NCBI GenBank assembly: GCA_008632985.1
Contig: QPGO01000093.1
Span: 186,001-250,000 of the forward strand
DNA: 64,000 bases
Source: Psammoneis japonica
Lineage: Eukaryota
Reading direction: 5' to 3'
Below the pieces are notes generated by a model. That model saw nothing but the letters and a program-made list of their open reading frames with translations. It did no database searches and had not been told where the DNA came from. A program made the translations under genes and the position numbers. Shown in pieces: positions 5,223 to 63,112 of this stretch (position 1 is the stretch's first letter; every line of letters begins with the position of its first letter).

Positions 5223-7933
5223 GGTTGATGAGGTGTCGTTCCTGGATCTTCTTTTGTGACAACAGCGCAACCACGCAAGCTGGAAAACGAGAAAATCTTT
5301 TCTTCGTTCTAAAATCGTGTACATAGAATTTGTACCAGCAACTCACGTGCACTTGGTTTATAAAGCATGCAATGATGAAGAACAGTATAAAAATTTCAAT
5401 CGCGAGTGAACGTACCGGTAGGGCCTACGTAGCCCTACGGTATCTTTGCTACCGTACAGCATGGTACTGCACGAGCATTCAATCGCGCGAAACAGTCAAT
5501 GACTCAGCCGACTGAACGATTGACATCTGCCTGTGGACATTCGGATAGAGGGCAAGACCGGAGAACCATCGGTGAAAACGAAACAAGTCTCGAGCACACC
5601 GTTAGAGCGCCAAGCACTCCAACTTTCGGCTGAAACCTGGAGCAAAAATGAAAATTGAAGAAAAGTTGTGGGATGGCCGCTCTTGTTGATGTGCTTTTTT
5701 GTTTCCCGAGGGACAGGCAAAAAGACTGCCTTTCTGTGCCAGCCAGTCAGTCAGCCAGCCAGTCAGTCAGACTGTTGCCATCAGGGAGCATTTTGTGCTG
5801 CAGCTCAGATGTGGCAGAGCTGGTGGTTTTCTTGCAGATGGCTTGCCACCAAAAAGGAAGAGATGGGGGTGTCCTCAAAGCACTTGAGATTGACAAAAGC
5901 CCTGCAGCATGCAAAAGAGCAAAAAGCACTTGTCAGAGCAGGCCATCTGGGAAACAAACACTGCCTTTGACAAGTCTTTCATCCATGCCAAGCTTCAGCT
6001 TTTTGTGCCTTTGTTGACCACGCAACCCTGGCAGTTTCTTTGAAAAGCACAGCAGTGGCAACACACACCATTTGAAAATGCCCCTTGGGATCTCTTCAGC
6101 AAAGCAGGTGCGTCATTTCTGAGCAACACGCATCTTGCCAAGTGAGCTGAACACTGGGAAGATGCTGGTGCAGCTTTTTTTTTTCATTTGTGGCTCTGCA
6201 CATTGTGGCATGGGCTCTCATCAAGATGAGCGCCACTCTCCAGAGCTCATGTTTTCAGCAAAATGCTTGGTGTTGCTGATGCACACTCCAGCTCCAGGTG
6301 GGAATTTTTTTGAACATTTGTCCTGCAGAATTCTGCACGTGAGCTCTGCAGTTTGCACACTGGGTGGCAAACACACACATGAATGCTGCAACTCTTCATG
6401 TGCTGAACATTTTGGAAAACTCACAAACACAACACACCGGAGAACACAGAAGCTGCGTGACAAGCGTCAGAAGCTGTTTTCTTGAGTGGGGGTGGCCCAA
6501 CAAAATGGTGCCATAAACTGGCACAAAACAAATGTCTAAAGTTGAGCCACTGGGTGAGAAAAGAAGAGGGTTGTTGACATTGTGAAAGTTTCCATGACAA
6601 ACACATTGCCAGAAAGTGGAGAAAAGCTCTTTCTTGTGGCACACACTGACCCAAGCAGCAAACTGCTTGCTTTTGTTGCGGCACACGCAAGTGTGAAACT
6701 CAGTCAGTTTTTGTTGAAGACAAGGCCCATCCTTGGAAGCAAGGTTCTTCTCCCAGAGTTTGTGCTGATTTTGGATCCTCTTCTTGGCACAACTGCCCTT
6801 TGCTGTGTTGGTTTGGGTTCTTTGCATCCTCTCCAAAAGAAAAAAAACAACCTTGCTCTTGTGCAATTTCATCTCAACCAGTTGTCTCCAGTGTGTGTTG
6901 CTGCGAAGTGGTGCATTGACCACCAGATTGCATGAGCTTCCGCCGCACCCCTGGCGGCACACACTGGAAGCAAGTGTGGGGGTTGGCCAGTGCTGGCATT
7001 GCTGGGCAAAGGTGTGACAGCATGTAAAATCAGGTTTGAGCAAAGCTGGAAGCTGGAGTTTGATCAAAAAATCATTTCCTGGCTGTGCAATTCTTTGTGT
7101 GAGAAACTCTGGTTTGAGTTTTTTTTTGCTCAAGCACTTGCACGACAACCCTCTTTTTCTCACCCAGTGGCTCAGCTGCAGCTGTGGGGGCATGTGCAAA
7201 TTTTGTGTGAAGGTGTCAAAAAGTGCAAGATGTCACAGTTCCTCCCCACTGCAAGCCCTCCCACCTGGGAGAGCTGGAGTTCATGTCTGCTTGACAAGAT
7301 GTCATGAGGCTCACAGCTGATTTGCAATTTGCAAACTTCCACAGAGAAGAGCTTGTGACTTGGTGTCTGGCTTTGCTGCCATGGCCAAAGACAAAGCAGC
7401 AGCTCGCCCTTGCATCTTTGTGGTGTTCAAAGCAAAGTTGTGCTCTTCCCCAGCATCAGATGGAAAGCAGTGTGCTGTTGCAAGCAAAAGAGCCAGTGCT
7501 CATCTTTGAGGTGTTCCAAAGGTGTGCTCACAACATGGTTCATGGGCAAGGCTGTCACAAAAAAATGTCCTGTGAGCCAATCAACAAGGTCAGCACCCCT
7601 TGCATGGCTTTGCACACAGCAGACAGAAGCTGGCAAACCTGGCAGACACCTTCTTGCTTGCAAGCTCTGCCTTGTTGTCCAAAATGGAGAAACAAAAAAA
7701 ATGCATCCACAGAAAGGCAGAAAAAAGCAGCTCTTCATGTTGCTGCTCCTTTTCTTCAGGTGAAATTGTAAAAACTAAAATGCCAGTTTGAAGACATGCC
7801 AAATGTGCAAAATGTGGCAAGTTGTGTGAATGTCATTTCCACAAAAAACTCTGGCAAGCTCTGGAACAGGCCAGGTGCCAATCAAGGGCGGATTGTTGTT
7901 TTGTGGTTGATTTTGTTTAGAGTTCGCAGACAT

Positions 7934-8389
7934 TTAACGCCGCATCCACGGATTCACCAGGCAACACTCGGGCATGGCAAAAAGTGTGCATTTGGTCAAA
8001 ATTGATTGTTGAGTGCAAATGGTGGTGTCTTTGGGGTCCCTTCAGTGAGCCGATCATGCACATTTCTTGTCTGACCATCACAGGTCGTCTTAATGGGGGA
8101 TGTCAAAACGTCGTGCTTCAATGTGTGAATTTTCAATTTCACACAACCTCAACGGCTGAGTGCATCATGCAACGATTGATCCTTGAGACGTGTCAAAGCA
8201 CGACGTTTTGACACCCCCCACAAGACGGACCTGTGGTGGTCAAATGAGAAATGTGCGTGTTCGGCTCACTGAAGGGACCCCAAAGACACCACCATTTGCA
8301 CTCAATGATCGATTTTGACCAAATGCACACTTTTTGCCATGCCCAACTTTTGCCAATTTTGCCTGGTGAATGCGTGGATGCGGTGTTAA
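7934..8389. mobile_element. MITE-like element with ~185 bp inverted arms bounded by TTAA (possibly piggyBac-derived)
   Basis: 7934-8118 is the reverse complement of ~8196-8389 (e.g. GGTGGTGTCTTTGGGGTCCCTTCAGTGAGCCG / CGGCTCACTGAAGGGACCCCAAAGACACCACC). TTAA lies at both outer ends. Confidence 0.6.
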
Positions 8390-10119
8390 AAATGACCCGG
8401 ATTTGTTGCACTGACAATGCGCGCATTTGCCAACAAAAAATTCAGTGACAGGCCCAACTTTGTCTGTTTGCAAGACAACACAGAATGCACGTGAGATGAT
8501 TGCGACCATGCACAATGTGCAGCTTGTTGACTGCAAATTTGTCCACAGCAGGTCAAACGCCAATTGCCAGCATTTTCTGGAAAGTTGTGGCTCATCCACC
8601 ATGAACAGTCTAATTTTGGGGGAAAATGGCGGTTTGTTGCATGTGACAACTGCGGCAAACATGACAATTGGCATTTGAAGGTTGACATCTGCAGCTCACT
8701 TAGAGGTCCAACAGCCCTGATGGGGGCTGGGCACACTCACATGTGTCTGGGGGGTGCTCAGAGGCATCGCAAAATGACGCGGGCGAAGTGCGGGAAAATT
8801 CGAAAATCATGATCTGTTTTGAAAAAATGGTGCAAAACAATGACCCAGCCTTAAAAAAAGTCTGGTTCCAGATCCAGGTGATGCACACATGCGCTGTTTG
8901 TCAACTGGCTCATGTTGCTTTTTTGCAAACTCCTCTTCCTTCAACTTTGGTGCTTTGAAAAATTGCGGGGAGTGAGCAGCACACACAAGAAATTCCAACT
9001 TTGGCATTTTCAAAAATTGCAAGGTGAGCACACACAAGAAATTCTTTTTTGCCACTTGGGAAAAACCAGCCAAAGCCACACTTGTGGTTTTGAATTGGCG
9101 CGCAGCAAGGCCAAATTTGTCCAGCCATTTTGCGGTGGGCCATGGCTGCAGCTGTGCTTTTCAACAGGTGACTTCCCCCAAACAAAGCTGTGCACAGATT
9201 GTTGGCTGGCTGGTCTGGGAGTGCATTGCACCATCTGTCCTCCATCCACACATGACTCCACATTCCAGCCAGCAGCACCATTTGCTCCTCATTGCACACT
9301 TGGCTGGAAGTCTTCAGCTCAAACATCCATGGACAACAGCTGAGAGAGTGGCAACCAAGAGGTTGGCAGCAAACCAGCCCTCTTCATCCAGGAAAAGAAA
9401 AGGCAGGAGTGGAGTGATCAGACAGAAGGCAGTCTTGACTGCTGAGTCTGAGTGAGTTGGGAGAGTGACCTTGTCTGGGTTGTCTGCACAGCCCACATTC
9501 TTGGTGCTGCTGTTCCAGGTTGAGGTGTCAATTTCCATCATTTTGAAGTTCTCTGGGTCTGTGAACCCACTCCAACCAGGATGGCATGGAACATTTCCAC
9601 CTGGCTGTTGTTGGAGCCTCTTGTGCTGCTGCCAACCACGTGGTCATGGAGCAAGAAAGCTGCATTTCCATGGTCACTTGGCATGCTGTGCTGAGGAATG
9701 CCATGTCTTGTTCCAAATGCATTGACTGGATTGAGCCCACAATGGACTTGTGCAGGATGGCTTGCAGGGAACCCAGCTTGTGACCCACGCTGCTGCTCAA
9801 TGTGGGCAGTTTGCAAAGAAGTTGTTCCAGCCACATCTGGAAAATGTTGTGGCTCTTGTTCAGAGTTCATCTGTGCTGAACAAGAGCCCCCTGGGTTCTC
9901 AACAAGTGCTTGTTGACATTGAACAAAGCAAACCTGACAATTGTTTTTGCACTCCAAGTGGGAAAACACACTCAATCTGCAGGTCTCATTGTTTGTTTGA
10001 TCTTGATGAGATTGCAGCCACAGCGGTTCTGACATGATTTGGTTTGTGTCCACAATTGAACAAACATGCAAAGCAGGAAACAACAGCTGACAAAACTTGC
10101 AACTTGCACTTGTTTGTTC

Positions 10120-13100
10120 TTGACAAGGGTGCAACTGCTTTCTGACATTGCTCATTTCTGACAATGACAACGTTCACTCATCTCATTGAGATGCACATTG
10201 GCTGTGTGCTGCTTGCAATGTGATTTGTGCTGGCTGTGTTTTGTCATTTCTGCAGTGAACATGTTTTTGCCTCCTGTTTCCTGCTCTTCCCTCCTTGACT
10301 TTGTCCTGTCTCCTGCCAGTGCTCCCACGCCACAGTCACTCTCTGTCTTCACATGATGGTGTGATGTGCATTGTCCATTGCAACTGCTCTTTTGCTCACC
10401 ACAACCATGTCATTTGTTCCATGTCATGACCTTGTCTCTTTTGCTCATCATGCCAGTTTGCCAAAGCTTTGCTTGCAAAGAAGAGAAAAGAGCTTGCAAC
10501 AGATCCGAGCATTGTGTGTGTTTTGTTTTGAATGGGCTTGGCTTGGTGCAAATGACATTTCTGCTCACCTTTGTGTGCAACCTTGTCTCTTTCATTTTTC
10601 ATGCTGGCTTGCCAAAGCATTGCATGCAAAAAAGAGAAAAGAGTGCACAACAGATGAGAGCATTGTGTGTGTTTTGTTTTGAGTGTGCCTTGCGCAAATG
10701 CTGCTTCTGCTCACCTTTGAGTGGCCCCTGCAGGGCTGTTTTCCCTTCTGGCTTCCCTTGCATGTCAACATGTCCAAGTGGAAATGGGCAAAAGCACCAG
10801 TTGTTTGCATTGTTGCCCAAGCTCCATGCACTTGCCAACTCAGTTGCTGCCTCTCTCTCACCTTGCACCCCACATTGTCCTTCTCCTCCCCTGCCTCTGC
10901 TCTTCTGTTTCCTTCCCTCACTGCTGTCATTGTCGCGATGATGGATGAGCCCTGTGATTTGTGTTTTGTGTCTTGTTGGGCAATGATGATTTGTGTTTTT
11001 GCACCAATGTTGAGCCTGTCTGCCTGGTGATTCCTGTCAGCATTGCTTTTTAAGTGACAATTTTGTTTTGAAATTCCACACTCACACTTGGTTTTGCTGG
11101 TTTGAATGATTTAAAATGCTTGAATGAACCATCCAGTCATTGAGGTTTTGCGCATGTCTCTGCAGTTGGTCAATTTCTCAATTTTTGTTGTGTCAATGTG
11201 TTCTTGTTAAGATGGAAATTTTCACAGTCTTGCTGCCACACACCATCCAACTTCAATGCTCCGGGACTTCAATCTCCACAATCTGCTTGATGCTCTCACA
11301 ACCACATTTTCTTTTTGGTGTGTTGCAACAATGCCACCAAAAAAACATGTGAGCCATCACCATGGAGGTGGTGGTGGCCATCCTTGTGCTGCCAACTGCT
11401 CCAATTCTGACAGCGCTCTTGGCCATGGCGATGCAGGTGGGCTGGCAGGAGATCTCAAGCTGAGCCTCAGCCACAAGAGCACAGCAGGAGGAGCCCTCAG
11501 AGAAACCAAGGCTCTGCCAATGGAGCTGCTGCAGCAATGGCTGACAACACAGCAACCACTGCCACTGCTGCTGCCTCCATCAACAATGAAGCCAACTGCC
11601 TGCCACACCAGTGCAGCTGATGACCCCGCTCTCTGGGGCCATTCCACCTGAAGATCTCGAATTTCTCATGCATTGGCACAAAATTCCCGTGGTTGTTGTT
11701 GCATCCCCTGGCACCCAACAGAGTCTCCCACAGCCATCTCAAGACAACTGAGCACTTGTGCTGTCACACAGATGGCTCCATGGTCTCTGCACAGGTGTGT
11801 TGACTGGGCCAAAGATCCCCCAGCCAAGTCAAAAAGAAAAGGGGCCACATTGACACCACAAGACAAGGCCTTTGCTCCCCAACCAAGGTTGTTGTTGGCT
11901 CTCCTGGGACACAATGGAATCACCAAAGGCCAGAAACAGATGTCTGGGCACTTGTGCTGTCACACAGAAAGCTCCCTTGCCCATGCAGGTGGGGTGGCTG
12001 GGCCACCAAAGCAAGCCAATCACATCAGAAAGAAAAGGGGCTGCACTGACCTGAGACAAGGCTTTTCCATTGTTGTTGCCTCCTCCCAGACACAACAGAG
12101 TCTCTTGTGCCTGTCCCCAGAAAACTTGGTGCTTGCACTGTCACATGGATGGCTCCCTTGTCTTTCTTGCAGATTGAGCCACCAAAAGCCATCCCAAGAC
12201 AATGGAGTGCTTGCACTGTCACACAGATGGTTCCCTTGTCTTTGCAGGTTGGCTGGTGTCTCCACACTTTGTTCAGCTGGGCACCTTCTTGTGTGGAGGA
12301 ATCCTGCAAGGAGCTGCTGCTTCTGCCCAAGACAGGGCTTGCAGCTTCCAAAATCAAGAGTGCAAACACACCACAGTTGGGCCAAGAACCCACTCAACAA
12401 ATGCAGGCTGAGTGCATTCTTTGGGGTCCATGTCATGATGCAGGTGGCAGCAACTCAAACCAATGTGCACTGCTGGCAATGATGATGATCTGGCTTGGCA
12501 TTTGGCAAATGTTTGCTGGAACATGGGTGCACTGCCACCACATGCTCCACTTCAGTTTCTTGAGTGGCCTTGGCCTGTGCGCCATTTGTGCTTGTTGTTC
12601 TTGCTTCCCAACCATCTGTTGGACAGCACAAGTTCTCAGCTGTCTTGGGATGGGCACAAGAGACTCCATTGGGTCCCTGGGGAGGCAAGAACAACAAGCG
12701 TGAATGGCGCACAGGCCAAGGCCACTCAAGAAACTGAAGTGGAGCATGTGGTGGCAGTGCACCCATGTTCCAGCAAACATTTGCCAAATGCCAAGCCAGA
12801 TCATCATCATTGCCAGCAGTGCACATTGGTTTGAGTTGCTGCCACCTGCATCATGACATGGACCCCAAAGAATGCACTCAGCCTGCATTTGTTGAGTGGG
12901 TTCTTGGCCCAACTGTGGTGTCTTTGCACTCTTGACTTTGGAAGCTGCAAGCCTTGTCTTGGACAGCAGCAGCAGCCCCTTGCAGGATTCCTCCACACAA
13001 GAAGATGCCCAGCTGAACAAAGTGTGGAGGCACTGACCAACCTGCAAAGACAAGGGAACCATCTGTGTGACAGCGCAAGCACTCCATTGTCTTGGGATGG

Positions 13101-14985
13101 CTTTTGGTGGCTCAACCTGCAAGAAAGACAAGGGAGCCATCTGTGTGACAGCACAAGTGCCAAGTTTTCTGGGGACAGGCACAAGAGACTCTGTTGGGTT
13201 CGGGAGGAGGCAACAACAATGGAGAAGCCTTGTCTTGGGTTGATGCAGCCCTTTTTCTTTCTGATGTCATGATTGGCTTGCTTTGGCGGCCCAGCCACCC
13301 CACAAGCAGAGGCAAGGGAGCTTTCTGTGTGTGACAGCACAAGTGCCCAGGCATCTTTTGCTGGCCTTGAGTGACTCCGTTGTGTCCCAGAAGAGCCAAC
13401 AACAACCTTGGTTGGGGAGCAAAGGCCTTGTCAATGTGGCCCCTTTTCTTTTTGACTTGACTGGGGGCTTCTTTGGCCCAGCCAACACACATGTGCAGAG
13501 ACCATGGAGCCATCTGTGTGACAGCGCAAGCAACCAGTTGTCTTGGGATGGCTGTGGGAGACTCCATTGGGTGCCAGGGCATGCAACAACAATCACAGGA
13601 ATTTTGTGCCAGCACATGAGAAATTCATGATTTTTGGCTCCAATGGCTGGAGAGTGGTGCGGGCCCACATTGGCATGGTGAGCAGCAGCTTTGTCATTGT
13701 GGAGGCAGCAGCAGTGCCAACAGTTGCCGGGTTGGGACCATTAGCCAGTGCTGCAGCAGCTGTGGCAGCACAGCCTTGGTTTCTCTGAGAGGGCTCCTCC
13801 TGCTGTGCTCTTGTGGCTGAGATTGAGCTTGAGATTTTCCAGCTCCACCTGCACAGCAAGACTGTGAAAATTTGCATCTTAACAAGAACACATCAACATG
13901 ACAAAAAATGAGAAATTGACCGACTGCCGACACACAAGCAAAAGCTCAATGATTGGATGATCCATCAAGTCATTTCAAATCATTCAAACCTTCAAAACCA
14001 AATGTGAGCATGGAATTTTAAAACAAAATTGTCACTTAAAAAGCGATGCTGAGAGGAATCACCAGGCAGACAGGCTCAACATTGCTGCAAAAACGCAAAC
14101 CATCATTTCCTCACAAGGCACAAAACACAAAACACAAGGCTCGTCAAACATCATGACAATGACATCAGCAGTGAGGGAAGGCAACAACAGAAGAAGAGCA
14201 CCAGGGGGAGGAGGACAGTGCAGAACACAAGGCAAGAGAGAGACATGAACTGAGTTGGTGAGTGCACAGAGCTTGGGCAACAATGGAAGTGACTTGTGCT
14301 TTTGCCAATCTTTCCACTCAGACATGATGTTGACAACATGCCAGGGGAGCCAGAAGGGAAGGCAGCCCTGCAGGGGCCACTCAAAGGTGAACAGAAACAG
14401 CGTTTGCACCAAGCACATTCAAAACAATGCAAACGCAATGCTCTCATCTGCTGCATGCTCTTTTCTCTTCTTTGCAGGCGATGCTTTGGCAAACTGGTGT
14501 GAAGCACAAAAGAGACATGGTCACATGCAAAGGTGAGCACAAGTGCTGTTTTTGCCAAGCCAAGCCCATTCAAAATAAAGCACACGCAATGCTCTGAACT
14601 GTTGTGAGCTCTTTTCTCTTCTTTGCGGGCAAAGCTTTGGCAATCTGGCATGACAAGCAAAAGAGACAAGGTCATGACATGGAACAAATGACAGGATTGT
14701 GCATGGTGACCGAGAGCGGCTACAAGGGGCAGCACAATGAGCGAAACATCATGCCGCCACAGCGGCGTGGGAGAGCTGGCAGGAGACAGGACAAAGCCAA
14801 GGAGGGAGGAGCAGGAAACTGGAAGCAAAAACATGTTCACTGCAGAAATGACAAAACACAGCCAGCAAAATCACATTGCAAGCAACACACAACCAGCGCA
14901 CAAGCATCTTAATGAGATGAATGAATTTCGTCATTGTCAGAAATGAGTGATGTCACAAAGCAGCCACAGCTGCACCCTTGTTGAG
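10120..14985. repeat. ~4.9 kb imperfect palindrome (foldback-like), arms ~2.3-2.5 kb, spacer ~12610-12680
   Basis: Mirror ORFs on opposite strands (12463-12834+ and 12455-12826- share their N- and C-termini, 11673+ vs 12807-, 10683+ vs 14059-). 10120-10275 matches the reverse complement of ~14820-14985. Confidence 0.92.
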
Positions 14986-15397
14986 AAGTTTCATTGACAA
15001 CCATTTCCAACTTGGAAGGTCACATTAATTGTGAACGTGAGCTGAATCATTTCAAAATGATTGTGGCCACAATCTTGCCAAGATTGAACACAGAATTAGA
15101 GCCATTTTCATCAAGCATCAAATCCCGCTTGGAGTGTTGAAATGACTGTTAAAATTGCTTCGCACATGATTGACAAGCAGCTGTTAAGAACACAGGATTC
15201 TCAACAAGCAAGTGCAAGTTCTGGGCTGAACAAGAGCCACAACGTTTTCCAGATGTGCCACACAGATGGTTCCCTCATCTTTGCAGGTTGGTTGGCTGGG
15301 CACCAAACCCAGTCATGTCAGAAAGACATGGTGCTGCATTGACACAAGACAAGGCCTTTGCTTCCCAGCCATTGTTGTTGTTGTTGTTGTTGTGCAT

Positions 15398-15839
15398 CAT
15401 GCATGCAGACAAAAGGTTGTTTTTGTCACGCCCTTTGTGACATTTAAAGGCTGCAACACGTCGCCATGACACATTGGCTCTTGTTGGCAGCTGTGTGCTG
15501 CACTCCTCCCCATGCATCACGCGTCCATGCGGCTCTTTGCTGATGTGTGCTGACACTGCACGGTTTTGGCGGAACAGTGTGGGTGCGCACGAAGGAACAC
15601 ACAGAACTGCACAGAGTTTTGCGTGCTCGACAGTGATCAACGTTGCTGCAGACAACTCCCACTCAGGGTTTCAAACCCCTGGCCTCCTGCCTGATGGTTG
15701 CGATGAACCACTCCGCTGTGAATTCACAACGCAGCATGCATGCAGACAAAAGGTTGTTTTTGTCATGCCTTTTGTGACATTTAAAGGCTGCAACACGTCG
15801 CCGTGATGCGTTGGCTCTCATCAGCAGCTGTGTGCTGCA
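15398..15839 (+). repeat. Two ~105 bp direct repeats (15398-15501, 15735-15839)
   Basis: GCATGCAGACAAAAGGTTGTTTTTGTCA...GACATTTAAAGGCTGCAACACGTCGCC...GCAGCTGTGTGCTGCA occurs twice. Confidence 0.85.
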
Positions 15840-15977
15840 GTTGTTGTCAAACACCCAATGAGGACAGAGTGAATTGCAACAGAGGCACGCCACTGTTGTT
15901 GTTGTTGGATGTTGGATCAAAGGATGAGTTGCACAGTGTCCAGCAGGAAAAAGGACAAATGCAGCAGAGAAACAGAG

Positions 15978-16185
15978 CAAAACAAAGGCAGAGAGCTGAC
16001 AAATGGAAGAAAAGGGAACAAATGAAGCTGTTCTTGAGAAGTTTGAAATGAGGACAAAATGAGCCACACAGGCAACTCGTCAAACAAAGGCAGAGATCTG
16101 ACAAATGGAGGGAAAGGGAACAAATGATGAAGCTGTTCTTAACAGGTTTAAAATGAGGACAAAATGAGCTGTGCAGGTGACCTGC
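15978..16185 (+). repeat. Tandem ~105 bp repeat, with a partial third copy at ~17393-17440
   Basis: AAACAAAGGCAGAGA-CTGACAAATGGA...GAAGCTGTTCTT...AAATGAGGACAAAATGAGC is repeated. Confidence 0.85.
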
Positions 16186-18601
16186 CATGATGCTTTTGGG
16201 CCACATCCACCTGACCACAGCTGTGGTTTTTGACAAAAATGCTCGTGACCCATGAAATCAATTTTTCTTCTTTCCAAACAAACACAGGCATGCTGCACAG
16301 CGCGAATTGACGCTGGGGTCAGTTGTGATGGTGTGGCAACATTTGGCACCAAGAAGTGAGAGAAACACATTGAGAGCATGCCAAAGCCTTGCTGTGATCA
16401 CAAGGTGCAGGTCCCAAAGAAAGGTGTCTTTGCTCAATGCCTTTGATCATCATCTGCATCCCACATGACATCAAATGCTTTGAAGGTCAAAAGTGAAGTG
16501 CGCTGTGCAGGTGCCCATGACTTGGACAATGCACTCGACAAAGATGGCATGGAAAGGCGCAAGCTGTTTCTTTGGCAGCGCTTTCCTTGTTAAAATAAAA
16601 ACAAGCATGGCAGCCCTTGCTTGTCATGATCATTTGCAACAATCAAATTGACTCAATGTTCATGTTGTCAAATCATCCAAAAAATTTGATCAATGGCTCT
16701 CAAACGCCTCCCTCCTTCGTGACCAAATGAGGAGATCCTGGGCAGTTGTCAGGTGTCAAAAATCCACACAAGTTCCTGAGGAGCCATGAGCAGTTGGACC
16801 TTGGCTCCTGTGAATCTGCGAGCTCCAACCAAATTGATTGGCAGCACAGCTCAAATTGTTCACTTTGTCTGCAAAGAGGTGTTTTCAAGCAGTCGACGCT
16901 TCTAAAACTGGGGCTGAGCTGCAGAAAGTGCTGCCAGCAACAGGCAAATGACAACAGCTGGCTGGAGCCCTTCTGTCAGACACCCATTTTTGTCATTTTG
17001 CATGCATGGAATGATGTGCACTTTGTCAACAATGTGGGTTGAACACCCCACAACAGTCCAGGAAGCACCCGCCACAGAGAAGGGTGCTGAGTGTGAGCAA
17101 CGGCAAGAGTCAACAAGCACAGTCAGCGCCACTTTTAACAACAAAAGTTGATTTGATCCAGGGCTTGGTGAGTGCACAGGCAGTTCTCTCTGCTGGGCTC
17201 CAAGCACTGGAAATCATTGCTGTGGTGATGAGAGCAGCTTTGTCAAAAAGCAATTTGACAGAGTGGCGGCACAAGCCAGCGCTTTCAACAGCTGGCTGTG
17301 ACTGGGAGCTGCACACCACGACTGCAAGGAGATGCAACATGCCATGACAGATTGAATTGGCAAACTCTGGCATGCAGAGAAAACACTCGTGTGAGCCACA
17401 CAGGCAACTCAAACAAAGGCAGAGATCTGACAAATGAAAAAAAAAGCAAGCGAAGCTGGCTCAAAATGTTGGCAAAACAAGCCACACAGGCAACTTAAAA
17501 TGAGCAAAAAAGATTTGATCATTTGTGACTTGAAAACCATCGAGAAACAAAATCAATGTCCATGTAAATTGAAGATCTGTGGAGACAATCAGCGCAAATG
17601 TGCAAACCCCAATTGTTGACAAGCGACACTCTGGTCAAGCACGGAAACATGTCACGTTGCAGACACATCATTGTGGCCAGTGGTGGTGCAGCAGACAGGC
17701 TGCTGTGTTTTAAAAACTAAAACAACTCTTGAATTGCAACACATGACGGGGATCGACACAGCGTCATCAACAACGTCCAACGTTGCGTTGTTGAGAAATC
17801 AGTGTTGACTTTGGCGCAACCGCACCTGAAAGTAGTACATGCATGCTGCACGTAGACAGTAAGATAAGAAAACACACATCCGTTGTTCGTCCATCTGTCC
17901 TATTTTCGCGCGCAGGACAATAAATGTGTGAAATGACTGTCCAACGAGTCGTTCGTGTGTCGTATTGTCTGAAATGTGTCATTTTCATTAACACTTTTTA
18001 AAAACATTTAACAAGAATTTATTTATGAGAAATGACTGCAAAACGAGAAACTTTTGTGTCCTAGCTTTTCAGACGAGAGAAGATTGCAATACGACCGACG
18101 ATGATGGATTCCTACCAATCACACCGCACCTTTGTGCGATGCTTAGTCCCGCCATGCAAACAATTAACAATGATAACCCCTCGATTTGATCTCTACCGTT
18201 TTCTGCAATGGATAAATGATCGAAGAATCATCCTGTCAAGAACCTACAAAATGAAAAGCACGAGCGAGAGACAACAACTACTACTACAAGACCAATTATT
18301 GGGAACGGTAAGCTGAAGTTCTTCATTGGATCTTTATGATGAAATACTGTCATGGTAGTGCCCAGAGCAGTGTATTGGATATGGATACTGAATGGCGACG
18401 GACGCTGTCGAGCTAATGCATCCTCTTGTACTATCCCAACAGATTCCTCGTTCGTCTCACTTATTTCGCTCAATTTTGCACAGACTGATTTCAAGAACAA
18501 GTAAAACACCAGCATCCTGACTTTGGGCTGACGACAAGCACAGCAATAATAACAAGAAAAACTGACTGGCGACAATACGAGGCACCAAGAGTACAACAAG
18601 G

Positions 18602-21600
18602 ATGAATCTCCTTTTCGGAACATCCTTTCTATTTCTCAACCTACTTGTCTCAGAAACGACAAGTGCCATTCGTAATTTGAAACCCTCTGAGGACACCAGC
18701 GATCCCCACAGCAAGAAAAAGCCGTTCTCTACGGTGAGTTTTCATCTACGATAGCTTTATACAACAGTTGCGTTGAATTCGTCGCCACTCATCGGTCTCC
18801 GCTTTTGATTGTCAGCATGTGGTTCCGTACGAAGACGCAGACACTATGGAGGAAGATCAGGACCCTTCGGTCGGAGCACGACGTGCCAGTATTTCGAAGG
18901 GAATTGTGTCAAGGACGCAGTTGCCGGCCCTGAATCGGAATCCACCCCACAGAGTGACTATGCAAGTGGAAGGAAACTACGCGTATCTCGGCATTTATGG
19001 ATCCAACAAAGTGCTGATCTACGACATCTCGGGTCAGCATGCGGCCAATTATATTGCGTCAGTCGACACGTGCTTTGGGAGGAACATTCATGACCTGTGG
19101 GTTTCTGGCACGCACTTGTGGACATCTCACCGATTTGGTGGAATCACAATGATTGACATTTCTGATCCCACAAATCCAGTGACCCCGCCAAAATGCTTTT
19201 CGGAAACATACAACCACAAGGGTCTAATCTCAGAGGGAAATTACCTCTTCTACTCCGGGTATTATCTCTCAATCTACCAGATAACGGGTAATTCTTTGCG
19301 TCTGGTTTCACGAAGCTCTCGCATTCCTTCCGACGGCTGGGAGTTGGTTGTGAACGGAAACTATGCATACGTGGCATCCGAAAATGCTCTTGGTGCTCCC
19401 GTCCACATATACGATATATCTAACAAGGCGAAAGCTCCTTCTCTGGTCAGAACTTTTAGTTCAGCAAGAGGAAAGTATCCTCCACTTGAAATGATTGTCT
19501 CCCGCGATCAAAAGAGACTTTATGCATTGGAAAGGAATACAACGGGGTATGGGGAAGGATTCGATATCTACGACATCGACGGTGCAAACGCTGCCAATCC
19601 TCAACGCCTTGGCAGTGTCACTAGCCAACCGCTTGCGTTTCATATTGCACTTGATGACGAGAAAATTATTCTTTACGTCCAAAACCACTGGACGAGTGCA
19701 AAAATCAGTGCCTATGATGTGCAAGATGCCACCTCGCCGAGATTGATAGAGTCATACGACCTCCCACAGACCACCTGGGATGCTGGAAGAGGCCGCATAG
19801 GATACCAAAATGGCGACTTGTGGTACTCTAACGGATATGTCTACACAGTGAACGGAAATGATCTTGTCGTTCTCCAAGCTCTCGGAACTGGAACAAAGAA
19901 GATCAAGGTCTCACTCGAAAAGGCAAGTGGAAAGAAGCTTGATATCTCTGAACTCGGGCCGCCCGGCCAGTCCATCGGCGACATTGAAGAGATTGAAATC
20001 AATGTGGCCCGTGGAGGACCTTTCAAGAGGATCAAAAAGTTGCCCGGAAGTCGCAGTACGAGCACCTACTGGGTAGGCGAAGGTAAAAAGGGTGAGGCGA
20101 TGAACCTCGTGCGCACCAAGGGCCGAAAGGGACTCCATGATGTCCTGGTTGGCTCCTTTGTCGACCCTCAGGATCACGTGGTGCACCAGATTAGGCAAGA
20201 CGCAGATGGTGATACTATAATGGTCTCCACGCCGACTGCGTACTTTCCTCCCGAGACGTGTATTGCCGTGGGTTCCAGTAGAGCTCTTCTGCCAGACATG
20301 GAAAGGCTCCGGGGCGCTGAAGCTCTCGATCGCCAGCTCTCATATACTCCGATCATTCGTGTGCTTGTAACTTGGACACAGGCAGCCGAATGCAAGGCTT
20401 CGTCCCTGCCAATAGACTGCATTGTCACTGATGCTACCCACACAACAATGGAGGGTTTGGCGAAGCTGGCCATCGAGGAAACAAACACTGCCTTTGATAC
20501 GTCCTTTGTCGACGCCGAGCTTGAACTTGCCTTTGCCTACCGTGATCCGGACAATTACGTCGAGTATGGTGGTGATAATACATATGTAAACGCCCTTCGG
20601 GATCTCACTGAAGAAACGGATACATATTTGAATGATGCGCATGCCAAGCGCCGTGAATATGGAGCAGACGCAGTTGTTCTTTTGATTCATGACTGGACAT
20701 CTTGTGGGCGTGCCCATGTTCAACATAACGCCCCCATTCCGAAGTTTATGTTTTCAGTGACCTTTTGGTTTTGTTCGACAGGATATTACTCTTTTGGTCA
20801 TGAGCTTGGTAAGTACACCGTTCCCGACAAAAAGGCAGTCCTTTCTATTACTAACATCTTTCATCTTTGCTTTGTGTGGATATATCAGCACACAACACGG
20901 TAAGAGCTTTGAACTTGCTGATATCTTGCACCAATTTACTTTAGCATTCACTATTCACTTGCTCATTTGTCTCTGAAGGGGTGTCGGCACGATCGCGGAA
21001 CCGAGAACGAATGCGATGTGGAAGAGTTTCCTAATTACAACTACGGGTACCGTGACAAGGGAGGCGAGTTCCGATCAATCATGGCGTATGAGTGCACCAC
21101 AACTGAATGCGATAGAAACCCAAGCAATAGTTGTGGCAGGGTTCAAAGGTTTTCTCATCCTGGAGACTACATCGTCGGGGGAGTGAATCGCGGACCTATC
21201 GGCGATGCGCACAATGACTGCGCTCGCCGACTCAATGACGTGGCTAGAGCCGTCTCCAACTTTTATGGCACCAAAAGGCTGATCTCGGTAAATGGATCCC
21301 TCTATGTGAAGGAGCTTACCGCACCTTCTCCAAATGTGGGGGGTCATGCTGGTATACATTACGAAACCTGGATGCCCATAAACGAACATTTCGCTCTCAT
21401 CGACAACCACCTTGCAGGCATTAAAAAATCCTGGGTGCTATGCGGCGATAGCGGGGTGCGTGCCAAACTTGTTGTCGACTTTTTTTTAGTCACGCCGAAT
21501 CTCCTCCAAGGCAACAGCTACTATCGTTTGTACAAGGGAAGTTCATGCGGCACCAACGAAGTACTAGTCTCAGAGAGCAAATCAAGGAGAGGTATTTATA

Positions 21601-34181: not shown

Positions 34182-37100
34182 TTACCATAACAGTCTTCCA
34201 TGCTCTATGTACTTCACCAACGATCGAATATGATAGACCGGCAGCAAAGGGAACCGTAAGGACACCGCATCCATCCGGTCGTCGCTCGTACCTAACGGTA
34301 ACGAGCATGTTCTGTTCTTATACCGTCGCGTTGGAGCGCAGCGCGTCGTCAGGGCAGAGAACAATGTTCATGATTCGTTCATCTTCTGCAGCGGTAAACT
34401 TGTTCGAGTTCTCGACATCATCGAAGCTAGCTTTCCCTTCTTCCAACAATTCTTTATCGTCTTGATGGCATTGTGTATCGGCTTGCAGGTTCCATTCGAA
34501 CTCAATTGTTTCAAGTCGATTCACCTGCTCAGCGGGAAGCTGACCAAGGTTCTTGAGTCTGCGTTGAAGTGACACCCACTCACAAAGCCACCTTTCGGTG
34601 TATCCGAAAGGCACACGGCAATGCCCATGCGCATCCTTGAACTTAGCAAGAGTTTCAAAGCCCAACTCCCAGTCAGTCTGACTGATCGTCCAACAAAAGC
34701 CAAGCCGTTCGAGCTGTCGGTGATGAGTACGTGGAAGCAGCAGCTTCGCTTGGCGCTGCTCTTCAGCCCACAGAGCCAAGTCTGGGTCCTCATCATAGTC
34801 GATCGGAACTGCGCAATGGCCGTGTTTTTCAGCATATCGTTGCAATCTTATGTACATCACACTCCAATTATCCCCCGTAAGAGACTCGCTGGAAAGTTGG
34901 TGAGATGACACTGTAGCGCCTGCAAGCGACGGCGTCTCGTTGGAACTTTCGGTAGCATCATCCCGAATACTGCACTCTGGCTGCGAGGCGCCGTTGTCTA
35001 CGTTCCACCTGAATCCAATCTTGCTAAGCTTTTCGTGGTGCGCCGGAGGGAGCTGTCCAATACCACGGAGCGTTCGCTGGCGTTCTGCCCAGGTTGACAA
35101 ATCGCTGGAACCATCTCCTAACGGCTTCACATTGCAATGGCCGTGCTTCTTCTTGAACGCACAAAGAGAAGCAAACATCTTGCTCCATGTTTGATTGAGC
35201 ATTTTCGAGTCGTCCAACACAATATCTTTGTCAGGGTAATTCAGCACTTCGCGAGACCCGTCCGAATACTGAACCTGGATACGTGAGCCTCCTTCGATTA
35301 TCTGCGTAACTTTTGCTTTGTACCAACGCGTCTTTTTCTTCCCTTCATTTTTCTTACCGGAGGTCTCCACCAAAAAGCGAACCTAAGATCATACCACGCA
35401 AGCAAGTCCTGGTGAGAACCCATGGAGCACATTACCAAAGGTCACACTTTGTCAAAGACACGCACCTTCACTTTCTGTCCGACGGCCATTTTCTTTCGTT
35501 GCTCTTCTACTATAGAGCTGGGTATGATCGCCCCATGATCTTCCTTTTCGACAAGAACAATGCGTTTGCTGGGAAAGTCTACAACCTCCACGTCACCGTC
35601 GTCATAGCGAATCCGAATTTTCGTTCCGTTCGATAGAACTTCAATGATCGACCCTTCGTACCATTTCTTACCCTGAACTATATTATCTCCTTGTTTGATT
35701 GAACAATTGTAGAGCCCCTGAAAAAAATATCCATAAGTATGATGTCCAGAAAAGCCTTCTCGTCATCGTCCCACAACAGGGAATACTTACCTTTACCCTC
35801 TGGCCAAGCAAAACCACTTCTCCAGAAGTTACAAGACTAGGTCCTTCGTCGTTTGATACTTCAGCTGGGTTCACGTCCTCAACAGCGGTTGACACATCGT
35901 TGGTGTGGGTGACGATTGATTCCTCTCCGTCACTGTTCTCACCTCCTTCAGCTTCGTCGTTCTTCTCGACACCGGCACCCGTCTTGTCGACAGGTTCGTC
36001 TGTTTCGCTTGTTTGTTCCGGGGTACCTTCGACGTCATTTGTCTCTTTGAGCTCGTGTTCTTCCCCTTTCGAATCATCAGCAGTAGCTTTCACCCCACTG
36101 ACTTCATCATTGACTCCCTCGTTTCCATCGTCGCCAGTTTCAGACGTCGCCTTTGCTCTATCAATTCTCTTTCTGCCGGCGTCAGCCTTTCTACTCTTTT
36201 TCGATTTTTTGGGCTTCACCTCAACCCATCTTTGGTGCTCGTCGTCGCTATCTTCGTTTAGTATAATATCCCCCACTAATTGAAGGTCCTCGCGCGGATA
36301 ATTCTCCAACTCAATGTCACCGTCCTGATACTGAACCCGAATCTTTGCCCCTCCCGATAACACTTCGATGACTTTTCCGCGGTACCATTTCTTCGTCGGG
36401 ACCACTAATCCAGCTTCCTCGTATTCAGCGTCAAAGCGTGTCTGAAGCGAAGCAATGGTTGAGAAACCAATTCAGACACGCAGAGCCTTTTACCATAGCT
36501 GCAACTACTTACCTTTACTTTCTGGCCAACTGCAATCGTCTTGCGCTGCTCCGCAACGGATAGACGGGACGGATCAAACCCGTTTTCTTGTTCGTTATCA
36601 GAAGGCTCGTCGTTCCACGGCGACGCCACAAAAAACTTTGGAGGTTTGCGTGTTCGGCCTGACGTCGTTCGCATGGGCAGCACAACTGCAGCAGGCTTTT
36701 TAGAAGGGCTATCATCATCACTCTCCTCCTTCATTGACACGTGCTTTCGTCGCCGGGAGGATTTTCTGATCACTTTTGCAGTTTCCTCCGCGTCGCTATC
36801 CTGGTCGCTCTCGTCGTCCTTCCATGTAATAGATTTTCGCGATCGTCTGCGTTCTGGTTTTTCTTTTTTCGCTGCCTGCTTCACCTCCTTGTGTGCGACG
36901 GCCTTCAATGAAAGAGTCTTGTGAGCTAGTCCGCTTGCTGGATCTGATTTTTCCTCCTTCTGGATTTCCTCGATACTCGCGTCGTCCTTCAACGCGGCAG
37001 TCTTGCGTGGCCGTCCGCGTTTCGCTTTTGGTTTTTCCACTGCCTGAATTTCCTCGTGATTCGCGTCGTCCTTCAATGAGGCAGTCTTGCGTGGTCGACC

Positions 37101-45890: not shown

Positions 45891-46194
45891 TTCATTGTTG
45901 GCATTGGTGGATCTTTGCTGATGGGACTTGACGACGACACACCGGATCACTTTTCTAGCACCGGCAGGACTCGCACTGAACTCTTGTCCCTACAGTGCTG
46001 CTTACGTTGGGGACGCGGGCCGACGCGACTACGATCAAGTGGCTTCAAAATGGTTCAATCACCCCGTGAAGTGTAGTTGCTATTGAAAACAAAGTTTAGA
46101 GACTAGACAGACACACTAACTCCAGCAGAAAGCAGATTTTCCTTACTATGTAACAGGACAGCACTATACCACCACAACCGCGCTCTTGGTAACT

Positions 46195-54389: not shown

Positions 54390-54900
54390 TGCCAGCCAAC
54401 CTGAGAACAGCAAGCTGAGGAGTTTTTGGTTCTCTGGTGGATCTCAGGTGACACTGCAACAACCATGGTTGAGCAGTGCAAGGCCTGTTTGTGTGGTTGT
54501 GGCCCCCGCATCACCTTGTCCCCACACTGGCAGAGCTGACCTCCAAACTCAACAGCAGAGGCCACATGGTGGTGCCAGCCAACCCAACAGCCACAAGCTG
54601 AGGACACTGGTGGCAGTGCCTGGCAAACCTGCAAGGTTGATCTTCTTGTGGCGTTGTGACCCCATGTCACCTTGTTCCCAACAGCAACAAAAGCAAGCTT
54701 CCAAACTCCACAGTGAAAGGACTCCTGTGATGGATGACAGCACCAATGAACTTGACAAAAGCAAGCTGAGGACACTGGTGGTGTCTGGGAAACCCCAGGT
54801 GAGACCTTTGAAAACTGTGGCCAAGCATTGCAAGGTTGATCTTGTGGCATTGTGGCCCCTTGTCACCTTGTCCCCAACAGCAGCAGACTTGAATTTTCAA
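54390..54900 (+). repeat. Three diverged ~170-185 bp tandem units
   Basis: CAAGCTGAGGA at ~54411, 54594 and 54762. TCACCTTGT(C/T)CC at ~54511, 54667 and 54863. Confidence 0.7.
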
Positions 54901-60400: not shown

Positions 60401-62083
60401 ATGGTGCATCAGTTTGAACTTCCAAGGGTGGTGCAGCTGCAGGTGTGTGGCAAAAGGAAATTTTTTTTGTGTTGGATGATTCATCCAGTTGTGCAATTCA
60501 AAGCAACAAACACAGTGTTGGTTTGTTTTCCCATTGCCATTTTGTTCATCAGACTCATCTCTGTCACTGCTGTCCCCTGCCGTGCTCTCATCCTCCTCCT
60601 CATGGTCAGCTGATGCAGTGTCCTCCTTGTCATCATTCTCTCCCTCCACTCATCAGTTTTGCTGTTGTGATCCTCCTCCTCCTCCTCCAAACAGTCCTCA
60701 AAACAATCCATTGCCTCCCGCTGTTGGATGGCATCCACCAGAATTCCTTCATGCTTGTCATCACTCAAATGACATGGATCAAGAAGTGAAGCCTCGTTCC
60801 TGTTGCACATGCTTGGCAGCTCCAGAGAGGCTGATGGTTCATCAAGCTCAGTGTTGGCAACTGCAATTTGCTTGAGCAACACTCATGTCTGACATTCCTC
60901 AGCATCGCCAGGAGTCCACCATCCTCTGGCCCTTGGAACAGGGCTCAGATGTGTTCCCTTGCAAACCCACTCACCAGCCTCAACAGTTGTGGGTGGGTCA
61001 AACTCTTTCCACACCTTGTTCTCCTGTGCTTTGTGGGGGAGTTCATCCCATTGCAGCAGACAAAAGCCCTCCTCAGATTCACAAGACAATGTGGCACAGC
61101 TGTTTGCAGCAATTTCCTTTGCCATTTTTTGTCAGTCAAGAAGTCCAACACAGATTTGTGAACCAACTGCACCTTGCCCCCCCCCCCCCCCCTGTTCTCA
61201 CAGAGCGGCGGGCAGATGCCCCTCACTTCTCAACATCCTCGTCATTGACAAATGCAAGAGTTCCCACCTGCATCTCCCTTCTCTGTGAGATGGATGTTGT
61301 GTGCATGGAGGCTGAACTCGACAAGGCCAGATGGATGATTCAAGTCCAATTAATCAACTCAAATCGAATGTGACGTCAGCTCGTGCTGAAAAACTTGGCG
61401 AGCGCAATTGAGTCGTGATGTCCATTGCACTGAGTTATCCCACTGGGATGCCACAGGCAAACGTGTCACTCACAGAAATCAAACAGCCCCCAATGTGAAG
61501 CTCGTGATTTTCATCGCTTGCCCGCCCCATCAATCAACACTGAACACGGGAAACAACATGACTTTGTTCTCACTTCTCGTTCATCAGGTGCTTTGTGAAG
61601 GGAAGTCAGCGCTGACCGGCTGCTCTTTCGTCTGTGATTGCACGGAAAGACAATGGCAGTGCGAACGCTCAACACTGACATGGCGGGCCGGCAGTTGACA
61701 AAGCTGGTGCTTTCTAAAAAAGAATGTGTTGGATTGGGACGAGGAGTTTCTACTTTTGATGCTCGTCGGGTGCGGCCCACCTGCACAAATGTCACGTTCT
61801 CCTTGTGCGTCAATCAAGAATTGACCCAGAATCCTTGAGTCAGGACTGGGTTGAAAAACGACTTGCTCCTTCCCCCCCCCCAAACTTTTGTGGCTCAGCG
61901 GACGCCTCACCAAACCTTTGTGTTTGGACCATCAGAGATGGACGTCTCGACCCATCTGTTCTTTATGTTTTTTGTTCGTTTTTCCCTTTCGTCTGCCCAA
62001 AAGAAACTCACAAACTCATTTTCTCCTTGCGTCTCTCAACAGATTGTTGTGCACAATGTTGGTGAAGAAGCTCGTAGGCAGGC

Positions 62084-62731
62084 GATGCTTTCAAAATTTT
62101 GGGAATTGCATTTTTGGATCAAGCTCGCATTCACACGGATCGGTGTCATGGAGGAATTGAAGGCTCGTTTGGTGGAGAGGGAAACAGTCAAGTCGACACG
62201 AAAGCAAGCAATGGTGCTTTTCATGGACACTGTCAAGAAACGGCTGAAATTCGATCGTAAGACTGACAAAAAGGCAGCGCGCAATTACACAGGCAGTGGC
62301 CACAAGGAAGGAAATTAGCCCCACCTTGCACTCTGGAAAGTTGAGTCCGGAAATGAAAGCCCATGTTGACACCATCACAAAGGCGATGGGCAAGTCACAG
62401 AATTGTCCAGTCTTTCAGGGTGCAGTTCACCGGGGTGCCAACATTCGTGGTGCACATTTCAATTTGTTGCGTCCTGGAGCCACCTTCATGGACCCGGCTT
62501 TTGTGAGTGCCTCTCTGAAAGAGACTGTTGCTTGTGGTTTTCGTGGAAGCAAGAATGCACTCTTCAAGATTGAAAGTCCATCGGGTGTAAACGTGACAAA
62601 GAATCCAAAAACAAAGCTGAGTCAGAAATTCTTTTTCGACCTGGCACTGTGTTCATGATCACGGCGGTTGAGGAACATGACGATCCCGAGTGCGGAAAGT
62701 GGAAGTTTGTTTCAATGCGGGAGATTCATTG
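62084..62731 (+). pseudogene. ADP-ribosyltransferase (ARTC, R-S-E clade) pseudogene with two frameshifts
   Basis: AARNYTGSGHKE, then VHRG, FMDPAFVSASL and LFKIES..G.NV, then AESEILFRPGTVFMITAVE. A GGAA duplication lies at ~62306-62313 and a shift at ~62603. Confidence 0.82.
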
Positions 62732-63112
62732 ATTTTGGTGGAAATTGTCAGAGACGGATGCAGGTTTGGATTTAGAAGACAATGGCAACTGCAGAAAACT
62801 TCCCGCTCTCTCCATCTGGAGGTGAGGTCTTGGGGGCCCATGTGGCACAGACAGGAGTGCTTGTTCCTGTCGCAGTGTGTGTTGTTGGCTGAGAAAGTGT
62901 GCTGGTGACATTCTCAGTTGTCGTTCATTGTTTTCGCTCGCATTCTCTTTGTTGTGTTTGATTGCTTAATTTGCGCCCACCCTTCCATCGGATCCATCTT
63001 GCGGCTTGCACTGCAAACCCCAGCAGTGTTCCGGGGGTGGCAAACACAGATTGGTGGGACTCTTCCACGTCATGAGCAGTGGACTCATTCACACTAAAGA
63101 CGTGTTCCAGCT

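What the first reader, a model, noticed from the sequence alone, without database searches (positions are those of the whole stretch)
10120..16185. Repeat copies record the mutation directly: TTAA vs TTGA and TG vs CA
Seen in the palindrome arms: CATTGAGATG (~10184) vs CATTAAGATG (rc ~14905), TTTTGAAATTCCA (~11066) vs TTTTAAAATTCCA (rc ~14011), GATTTAAAATG (~11108) vs GATTTGAAATG (rc ~13971). Seen in the tandem at 15978-16185: TTCTTGAG/GTTTGAAA vs TTCTTAAC/GTTTAAAA, and GAGCCACACAGGCAAC vs GAGCTGTGCAGGTGAC. Inference: copies were hit independently after duplication. TG/CA double differences come from a self-complementary ancestor (TA or CG) mutated on opposite strands.
Basis: partly seen in the sequence, partly recalled or inferred. 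Interest (0 to 1): 0.75.

Follow-up and report, generated by a model that had tools for sequence, protein, structure and literature searches.

The report
TA-erasing mutation recorded in diatom repeats
Copies of a diatom transposon and of a duplicated gene show that, once a stretch of this genome joins a repeat-rich block, its TA steps are rewritten to TG or CA in each copy separately. This matches a targeted mutation process that I found described for only one unrelated alga.

Summary
TG/CA double differences between the arms occur at 46 of 500 pyrimidine-purine steps, against 20 of 1591 other steps. The palindrome is two subfamilies of a dispersed non-coding TIR transposon lying head-to-head, in a diatom. 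The tandem is part of the same element.

Other copies give the direction. TA→TG/CA runs 14 to over 100 times faster than the reverse, and mostly after insertion. A gene family in this window still has unmutated paralogs. At sites where these agree on TA, erased copies show TG/CA in 146 of 167 cells, against 2 back-changes in 932. TA is lost before CG, without strand runs, preferring a 3' pyrimidine, and the loss spreads 200-300 bp into flanks.

Of 39 arm doubles modelled, about 17 trace to CG, 10 to TA and 11 to TG/CA.

Closest known: TpA hypermutation in Bigelowiella natans (preprint). The enzyme is not identified; DNA adenine deamination is my best guess. This scan noted TpA erasure before on other pieces of this genome.

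The parts
5600..17830 (.). TA- and CG-erased domain holding the finding. TA o/e 0.00-0.09 and CG 0.04-0.56 per kb over 6001-17000, against 0.43-0.75 and 0.78-1.29 in the genic stretch 18001-44000.
   Evidence: 37 TA left in 5600-17665, 36 of them with TAA on one strand.
9834..17665 (+). Subfamily-A copy of a dispersed TIR element with no coding homology found (ends YRTCTG...CAGAYR, CG probably ancestral; 2-bp target duplication CA at 9832-9833 and 17666-17667). It is interrupted by a second copy.
   Evidence: Matching 2-bp flanks in the window, C122, C26/C295 (CA/CA) and C25 (TT/TT). No Pfam hit in the 2 frames scanned that lie in or overlap it.
12680..15255 (-). Subfamily-B copy of the same element, inserted in opposite orientation; this is the right arm of the palindrome. 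It lacks a 197-bp segment (11236-11431) that A copies carry.
   Evidence: tree separates A and B, support 0.97-1.0
12334..12955 (.). Palindrome centre. Arms are 98.8% identical over 12334-12583, about 92% over 11834-12333 and 64-87% further out; 70-nt loop at 12610-12679. The inner left arm is B-type, read as conversion or fold-back copying (inference).
10187..10188 (+). Reader example 1: TG here, TA in the other arm; TA probably ancestral.
   Evidence: TG 11, CA 2, TA 5 of 18 covering copies; P(TA)=0.56, P(TG)=0.43
11069..11070 (+). Reader example 2: TA ancestral, TG derived in this copy only.
   Evidence: TA 18, TG 1, AA 1 of 20; P(TA)=1.00
11112..11113 (+). Reader example 3: probably reversed, a new TTAA from ancestral TG.
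   Evidence: TG 16, CA 1, TA 2 of 19 covering; P(TG)=0.99
15978..16185 (+). Two-unit tandem inside the element, older than its dispersal. 16044 and 16140 are TA-type columns; 16035 is inherited TG; 16170 and 16172 are minority TG in CA columns.
   Evidence: 18 other copies: 16044 TA10/TG1/CA2/other 5; 16140 TA6/CA7/TG4/other 1; 16149 TA4/CA12/other 2
15393..15839 (+). Small very-high-copy insert with 109-bp direct terminal repeats, in a (GTT)n run; CG less decayed.
   Evidence: summed contig depth about 60,000 vs about 58 on unique DNA
61311..62900 (.). TA-erased copy of an ADP-ribosyltransferase-domain gene family whose unmutated paralogs serve as the outgroup (TA o/e 0.10, CG 0.72).

Best explanation
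Two mutational processes act on repeat-rich, presumably silenced blocks of this diatom genome, mostly after each copy has inserted. (1) A TpA-specific A-to-G change on either strand turns TA into TG or CA. It is fastest when a pyrimidine follows the A and slowest at TAA, so TTAA survives and is caught half-way in repeat pairs. (2) A slower CG-to-TG/CA decay, as expected from 5-methylcytosine. Both self-complementary steps resolve to TG or CA at random, so copies differ by TG/CA doubles; an ordinary transition in a TG or CA step is also resolved this way. Shown (about 0.95): direction, specificity, independence between copies, TA before CG, no strand runs, short spreading into flanks. Inferred: that the blocks are silent and methylated, that targeting is by chromatin rather than by repeat pairing, and that the chemistry is deamination of adenine in DNA by a TadA/ADAT- or ADAR-type enzyme, with hypoxanthine then read as G. 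The confidence given is for the whole statement, including the deaminase.
For: Unmutated outgroup, 8 erased copies, 23 distinct TA sites: TG 87, CA 59, TA 19, other 2 of 167 cells. TG->TA 2 of 545 and CA->TA 0 of 387. Intact-vs-intact control: 6 of 107 TA cells changed. Transposon ML: TA->TG/CA 4.6 vs reverse 0.12, and equal rates cost 57 and 55 lnL in two segments; bootstrap medians are 14.5x for TAA and 127x for TAY (38 replicates). Columns split into TA-type and CG-type: of 234 mixed columns 35 hold TA only, 96 CG only, 4 both, 99 neither. New TA made by transversion is converted: AA->TG 7 vs AA->TA 1 of 3020, with control doubles 0-1 in each of 10 classes. TA before CG: five copies lost 82-86% of TA but 16-33% of CG. 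Of 655 600-bp windows, 30 are TA-poor with normal CG and 0 are CG-poor with normal TA. The 3' base decides the rate (3'-only model -lnL 4754.6, 5'-only 4782.8, none 4806.9). The strand with a 3' pyrimidine wins 65:24. TadA-derived editors prefer 5' T, gain with 3' C and lose with 3' A (PMC8989541, passages).
Against: No enzyme was identified. The dCMP_cyt_deam-fold hits (9 matches; 5) look like housekeeping deaminases with no chromatin-reading domain in the frames scanned. The two ADAR/ADAT1-fold genes show only the catalytic domain in the frames read, and one is conserved across diatoms. The absence of strand runs is unlike the clustered edits of single-strand deaminases (recalled). The editors' 5'-T preference is mild (25-52%) compared with the 10-fold or more seen here. 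The TAG rate is unstable between fits (2.6, 16-75). The mutual exclusion of TA and CG columns is not significant when 2 or more copies of each are required (0 of 664, p=0.097). Methylation and silence were not measured.
Confidence: 0.55

Rival explanations
1. Same direction, different chemistry. A T:G-mismatch repair activity that guards methylated DNA always removes the T, and so fixes replication T:G mispairs at TpA as C:G, as Vsr does in E. coli. The target base would then be T in R-T-A.
For: It gives pure transitions, scattered and without strand runs, in the same blocks as CG decay. A->G outside TA is also higher before a pyrimidine (46/168 vs 19/221 sites, p=1e-6; 111/2816 vs 54/4776 cells in the transposon), which equals T->C after a purine. 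Vsr stimulates CTAGG-to-CCAGG changes (PMC2715241, passages).
Against: It needs a TpA-specific factor. CA->TA change, the lesion such a factor would guard against, is rare here (0 of 387). TG->CG is not raised (8 of 545). Only 2 UDG-superfamily matches were found and I did not characterise them. Vsr and MBD4-type genes were not searched.
Confidence: 0.2
2. A base modification of A or T laid at TpA in silent chromatin (unknown) is miscopied or misrepaired as G:C.
For: Dinucleotide specificity, symmetry on both strands and 200-300 bp spreading resemble a writer enzyme. The genome has many C5-methylase-fold genes (27 matches), one closest to the DNMT1/DIM-2 clade. Diatom DNMT4 is RID-related and of unknown function (PMC9998398, passages).
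Against: No modification data. I know of no precedent (recall).
Confidence: 0.15
3. Error-prone repair synthesis (polymerase eta type, WA motif) triggered by repair of deaminated 5mC.
For: It would couple A:T mutation to methylated domains. There is mild A->G leakage at AAY (25 of 464 cells).
Against: AA->AG is 0.01-0.08 against 0.32-0.52 for TA. Only 2 of 148 changes at TA are transversions. TA loss runs ahead of CG loss. The WA/transversion signature of polymerase eta is recalled, not from a call.
Confidence: 0.05
4. There is no TA mutator. All TG/CA doubles come from CG decay or inheritance, the elements were TA-poor from the start, and surviving TA are back-mutations.
For: True for single sites (11112; inherited 16035). 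CG explains the largest share of arm doubles. No TA-intact copy of the transposon was found among 57 ends examined.
Against: Unmutated paralogs show TA as the starting state. A model without TA excess is 91 lnL worse. Erased copies sit among intact ones on the tree.
Confidence: 0.02

Closest known systems
TpA hypermutation of integrated NCLDV and virophage DNA in Bigelowiella natans (Mettrop et al., bioRxiv 10.64898/2026.01.13.699255; read parts 1-4 of 5 of the text, no supplements)
   Same: A->G/T->C only at TpA, on both strands, giving TG/CA. Confined to blocks. Long-term TpA-poor clusters include transposon-related genes. The enzyme is unknown and ADAT2 is proposed.
   Different: Here the host is a stramenopile, the targets are a DNA transposon and duplicated host-like genes, and erasure is near-complete (o/e about 0.05 vs Rho 0.45 in their NCLDV region). 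It is coupled to CG decay, with 3'-base preference and short spreading. Their main text has 0 occurrences of 'diatom', 'CpG' or 'context'. They measured de novo rates; I have only the historical record.
Repeat-induced point mutation (RIP) of fungi (features recalled; link to DNMT4/RID from PMC9998398 passages)
   Same: Dinucleotide-specific transitions that destroy repeats, with some leakage into flanks.
   Different: Opposite direction (RIP makes TA from CA). No strand coordination. Near-identical duplicates stay intact here (95% and 99% pairs), and an intact copy sits beside an erased 93% relative.
CG methylation of diatom transposon islands by DNMT5 (PMC9998398, passages) and 5mC deamination
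   Same: Explains the CG->TG/CA half and the island pattern.
   Different: Does not touch TA, which is lost faster here.
TadA-derived adenine base editors (PMC8989541, passages)
   Same: A->G in DNA, best after T, better before C, worse before A.
   Different: Engineered, need single-stranded DNA, and have much weaker 5' specificity.

Membership tests
B. natans-type TpA hypermutation | Changes at TpA are A->G/T->C transitions only | tested here: met
   146 of 148 changes at ancestral TA go to TG or CA
B. natans-type TpA hypermutation | Both strands hit | tested here: met
   TG 87, CA 59
B. natans-type TpA hypermutation | Confined to blocks of foreign or mobile DNA, genes spared | tested here: met
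   targets here also include duplicated host-like genes; viral inserts not examined
B. natans-type TpA hypermutation | De novo rate about 1000-fold above background, on in only some lines | not testable with these tools
   Needs mutation-accumulation lines. Only a weak hint: run X1 has G at two residual TA sites, 14722 and 17712, among the 40 of 90 rows shown.
B. natans-type TpA hypermutation | Single-copy target suffices | tested here: inconclusive
   Loss spreads 200-300 bp into flanks (8 of 51 flanks usable). No copy of erased 5650-6285 was listed, but only 40 of 111 candidates were scored.
B. natans-type TpA hypermutation | ADAT2-like candidate deaminase | tested here: inconclusive
   Deaminase-fold genes are present; orthology to Bn78255 not tested
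RIP | C->T at CpA, creating TpA | tested here: not met
   CA->TA 0 of 387, TG->TA 2 of 545
RIP | Triggered by duplication, both copies hit | tested here: not met
   L135/L136 (95%) and L140/L141 (99%) intact; L144 intact, L142 erased at 93%
RIP | Strand-coordinated tracts | tested here: not met
   No excess concordance in 15 distance-by-class bins; smallest p=0.05, at 300-1600 bp
RIP | RID/DNMT4 dependence, premeiotic timing | not testable with these tools
   A DNMT1/DIM-2-clade-like gene exists; class and function not established
5mC-driven CpG decay | CG->TG/CA excess in repeats | tested here: met
   164 of 185 changes at ancestral CG
5mC-driven CpG decay | CG methylation of the blocks | not testable with these tools
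   no methylation data
Polymerase-eta WA mutagenesis | AA hit along with TA, with transversions (recalled) | tested here: not met

The most novel reading that the evidence does not exclude
Diatoms carry a natural, chromatin-guided DNA adenine deaminase (5'-TAY-3' preferring) that edits silenced transposons and gene duplicates ahead of 5mC decay: a genome-defence mutator opposite to RIP and shared with, or convergent on, that of chlorarachniophytes.
Probability: 0.4. Interest if true: 0.9.

Novelty: new variant of a known kind. Interest (0 to 1): 0.68.

Why it matters
Natural A-to-G editing of genomic DNA is barely documented. A second eukaryotic supergroup with the B. natans signature, here run almost to completion and readable copy by copy, makes the enzyme question testable in diatoms, where CRISPR knockouts exist (PMC9998398). 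The 3'-pyrimidine preference, the lack of strand runs, the TA-before-CG order and the 200-300 bp spreading are constraints any candidate must meet. Practically, TA loss removes TAA/TAG stops and Tyr codons, so dead repeats look like long open frames, and TG/CA doubles inflate repeat age estimates.

Tried and rejected
No TA-intact master of the transposon was found: TA o/e was at most 0.17 inside all 57 ends listed.

An LVIVD-gene paralog fragment at 5924-6193 was too diverged to polarise.

A one-rate tree model needed a spurious direct TG<->CA term. It largely vanished once master and inserted branches were separated.

The strand-run test was negative.

Breadth across other diatoms could not be tested. 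The one metagenome scan returned a single 3.5-kb locus, which I did not analyse. The genome has no relatives in the collection.

Run X1 holds 0.44 of the words and may be the source sample. X2 and X3 hold next to none. Contigs do not span the palindrome, so the 98.8% centre is unverified.

Deaminase, ADAR-fold, UDG and DNMT searches gave no discriminating candidate.

Rows dropped before counts:
- L025 (chimeric).
- L026, L035 and L037 (treated as same-insertion duplicates); L031 (short).
- L042 (duplicate of L043).
- L145b (part intact: 9 of 11 TA kept) and from the 146/167 total.
- L038 and L039 were not used in the segment-1 alignment.
- 7 windows with N were skipped.

Literature searches for a diatom report of this process found only the B. 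natans preprint. One search returned nothing. The library lacks most subscription journals. The preprint's supplements (mutation list, Table S2) were not seen and could show whether B. natans shares the 3' preference.
Full report
Setting. The window is G000:C94:186001-250000 of a 91.4-Mb assembly in 597 contigs. Homologues with a species name are diatom proteins (Skeletonema, Thalassiosira, Seminavis, Nitzschia, Fistulifera, Pseudo-nitzschia; Thalassionema; Cylindrotheca), so I treat it as a diatom. Blocks at about 1-1900, 5600-17800, 44500-46000 and 52000-63000 have TA o/e near 0.0-0.1 and TG/CA 1.5-2.0, with CG 0.04-0.7. The genes between them are normal (TA 0.43-0.75, CG about 1).

Observation. 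Every motif pair quoted is there. Between the arms, 46 of 500 YR steps are TG/CA doubles, 26 are CG singles and 6 are TA singles. Other step classes give 20 doubles in 1591 (p=1.5e-15), and about 3 are expected by chance. Of 37 TA left in 5600-17665, 21 are TTAA and 36 have TAA on one strand. Contigs of a public run match TA-free stretches at about 99% or better.

What the repeats are. A search with 601 bases of the left arm gave 68 matches. Mapping 20 loci of up to 10 kb and the ends shows a dispersed element with short inverted ends YRTCTG...CAGAYR, 2-bp target duplications and an internal array of about 190-bp units. I found no coding homology and did not assign a superfamily. The window holds a subfamily-A copy (9834-17665) with a subfamily-B copy inverted inside it (12680-15255). 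The centre has been homogenised (98.8%). The tandem at 15978-16185 is part of the element and is present in the other copies. So the duplication was transposition, and part of the arm divergence is inherited.

Polarity from the element's copies. In 664 YR columns from two segments, mixed TG/CA columns hold TA only (35), CG only (96), both (4) or neither (99). A non-reversible tree model gives TA->TG/CA 4.6 and 3.4 against reverse 0.12 and 0.08, and equal rates cost 57 and 55 lnL. I then used 15 copies taken as separate insertions and 288 columns. Slowing the master branches to 0.09-0.2 of the terminal rate gains 70 lnL and removes the need for direct TG<->CA jumps. An early burst after insertion gains another 34, and no TA excess loses 91. 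Copies with 1-2% ordinary divergence have already lost about half of their CG and TTAA sites. Forbidding root TA or root CG costs 30 and 48 lnL. Of the 39 arm doubles in 9834-11235, the model assigns 11.0 to TA, 17.1 to CG and 11.0 to TG/CA; bootstrap 10-90% ranges are 7-13, 14-20 and 9-15. That split depends on the model, because many columns keep neither ancestor. In the tandem, 16044 and 16140 are TA-type, 16035 is inherited, and 16170/16172 are minority TG in CA columns. In columns at least 85% TG or CA, flips occur in 42 of 2855 cells, near an ordinary transition rate, so some doubles need no self-complementary ancestor.

Polarity from unmutated paralogs. The erased stretch 61311-62900 belongs to an ADP-ribosyltransferase-domain gene family with both intact and erased copies, interleaved on the tree. 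Where all covering intact copies (3 or more of 5) have TA (23 sites), 8 erased copies show TG 87, CA 59, TA 19 and other 2. The reverse is 2 of 545 and 0 of 387. Cells share sites, but outcomes at a site agree in only 215 of 383 pairs. Of 149 columns where erased copies differ as TG vs CA, 58 show TA in an intact copy, 67 show CG, 2 show both and 22 show neither.

Properties of the TA process. It precedes CG decay: five copies lost 82-86% of TA but 16-33% of CG. Among 655 windows of 600 bp from the window and 62 loci, none is CG-poor with normal TA and 30 are the converse. The base 3' of the A matters and the base 5' of the T hardly does; 3' pyrimidine wins 65:24 between strands. The rank of TAG is uncertain. 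A->G outside TA is low (0.01-0.08) but also favours a 3' pyrimidine, in both families; C->T before a pyrimidine is of similar size (0.033), so this leak is suggestive only. There are no strand runs. In 8 usable flanks of 51 (two look like one insertion; flanks were chosen for normal distal TA), TA per 100 bp rises 0.5, 0.75, 1.9, 3.4, 4.5 with distance from the element end. Near-identical gene duplicates stay intact. These fit a chromatin-defined target better than repeat pairing (inference).

Mechanism. Pure transitions at TpA allow two readings: attack on A (deamination) or fixation of T:G as C:G. I favour deamination. The preference matches TadA-derived editors in sign (PMC8989541, passages), and TG->CG is not raised as general loss of mismatch repair would predict (inference). 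Against it: no strand runs and no candidate with a targeting domain. T:G misrepair has a precedent in Vsr (PMC2715241, passages). Polymerase eta and RIP fail their tests.

Comparison and novelty. I read parts 1-4 of 5. They measured 230 AT->GC changes, all at TpA, among 231 mutations in two viral inserts of B. natans, and proposed ADAT2. Four searches found no diatom report. The process here works like theirs and meets three of their features. Rate, inducibility and enzyme could not be tested. Completeness, coupling to CG decay, 3' preference and spreading are not in their main text, so I class it as a new variant of a known kind. At least nine earlier notes of this scan report TpA erasure elsewhere in this genome, one with the TAY reading. 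They are unchecked and not independent support.

Verdict. The finding is real and well polarised. Interest 0.68.

Noticed in passing
window 15393-15839: 447-bp insert with 109-bp direct terminal repeats (TG...CA ends) in a (GTT)n run. Summed contig depth is about 1000 times unique DNA, so it is a very high-copy small element. A TRIM-like reading is recalled, not tested.
   Followed up: partly
window 61311-62900; L135-L152: Multi-copy ADP-ribosyltransferase-domain gene family (PF03496, PF01129) with intact and TA-erased members. The erased members give a time series from CG o/e 0.86 to 0.27.
   Followed up: yes
L131-L133 (G000:C301, C297): C5 DNA-methylase-like genes that are themselves TA-erased (TA 0.02-0.16) with CG only partly lost (0.55-0.84); possibly a young foreign insertion.
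   Followed up: no
L197/L198 (G000:C79:344558-345390): Second ADAR/ADAT1-fold gene, conserved across diatoms. Listed homologues carry only PF02137, and the PDB hits are ADAR catalytic domains.
   Followed up: partly
L163:310-1785 (-): Deaminase domain fused to a 2OG-Fe(II) dioxygenase in one open frame.
   Followed up: no
window 5924-6193: TA-erased fragment related to the end of the LVIVD-repeat gene at 18777-20903 or the frame on its opposite strand; too diverged to polarise.
   Followed up: partly
window 6645-7040 and 6286-6366: Two further high-copy small repeats (202 and 111 candidates in the own-genome searches that contained them).
   Followed up: no
window 7933-8390: Smaller palindrome (159-bp arms, 88%) with the same TG/CA doubles (6 of 52); depth about 20 times unique DNA.
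   Followed up: partly
window 34318-38298 (-): Helicase-associated (PF03457) frame next to 84-bp repeats and three related repeated segments; normal TA and CG although internally repeated.
   Followed up: no
L023:763-1263 and L026:764-1264: About 500-bp insertion at the same place in two 98%-identical copies of the element (same insertion, duplicated or allelic).
   Followed up: no
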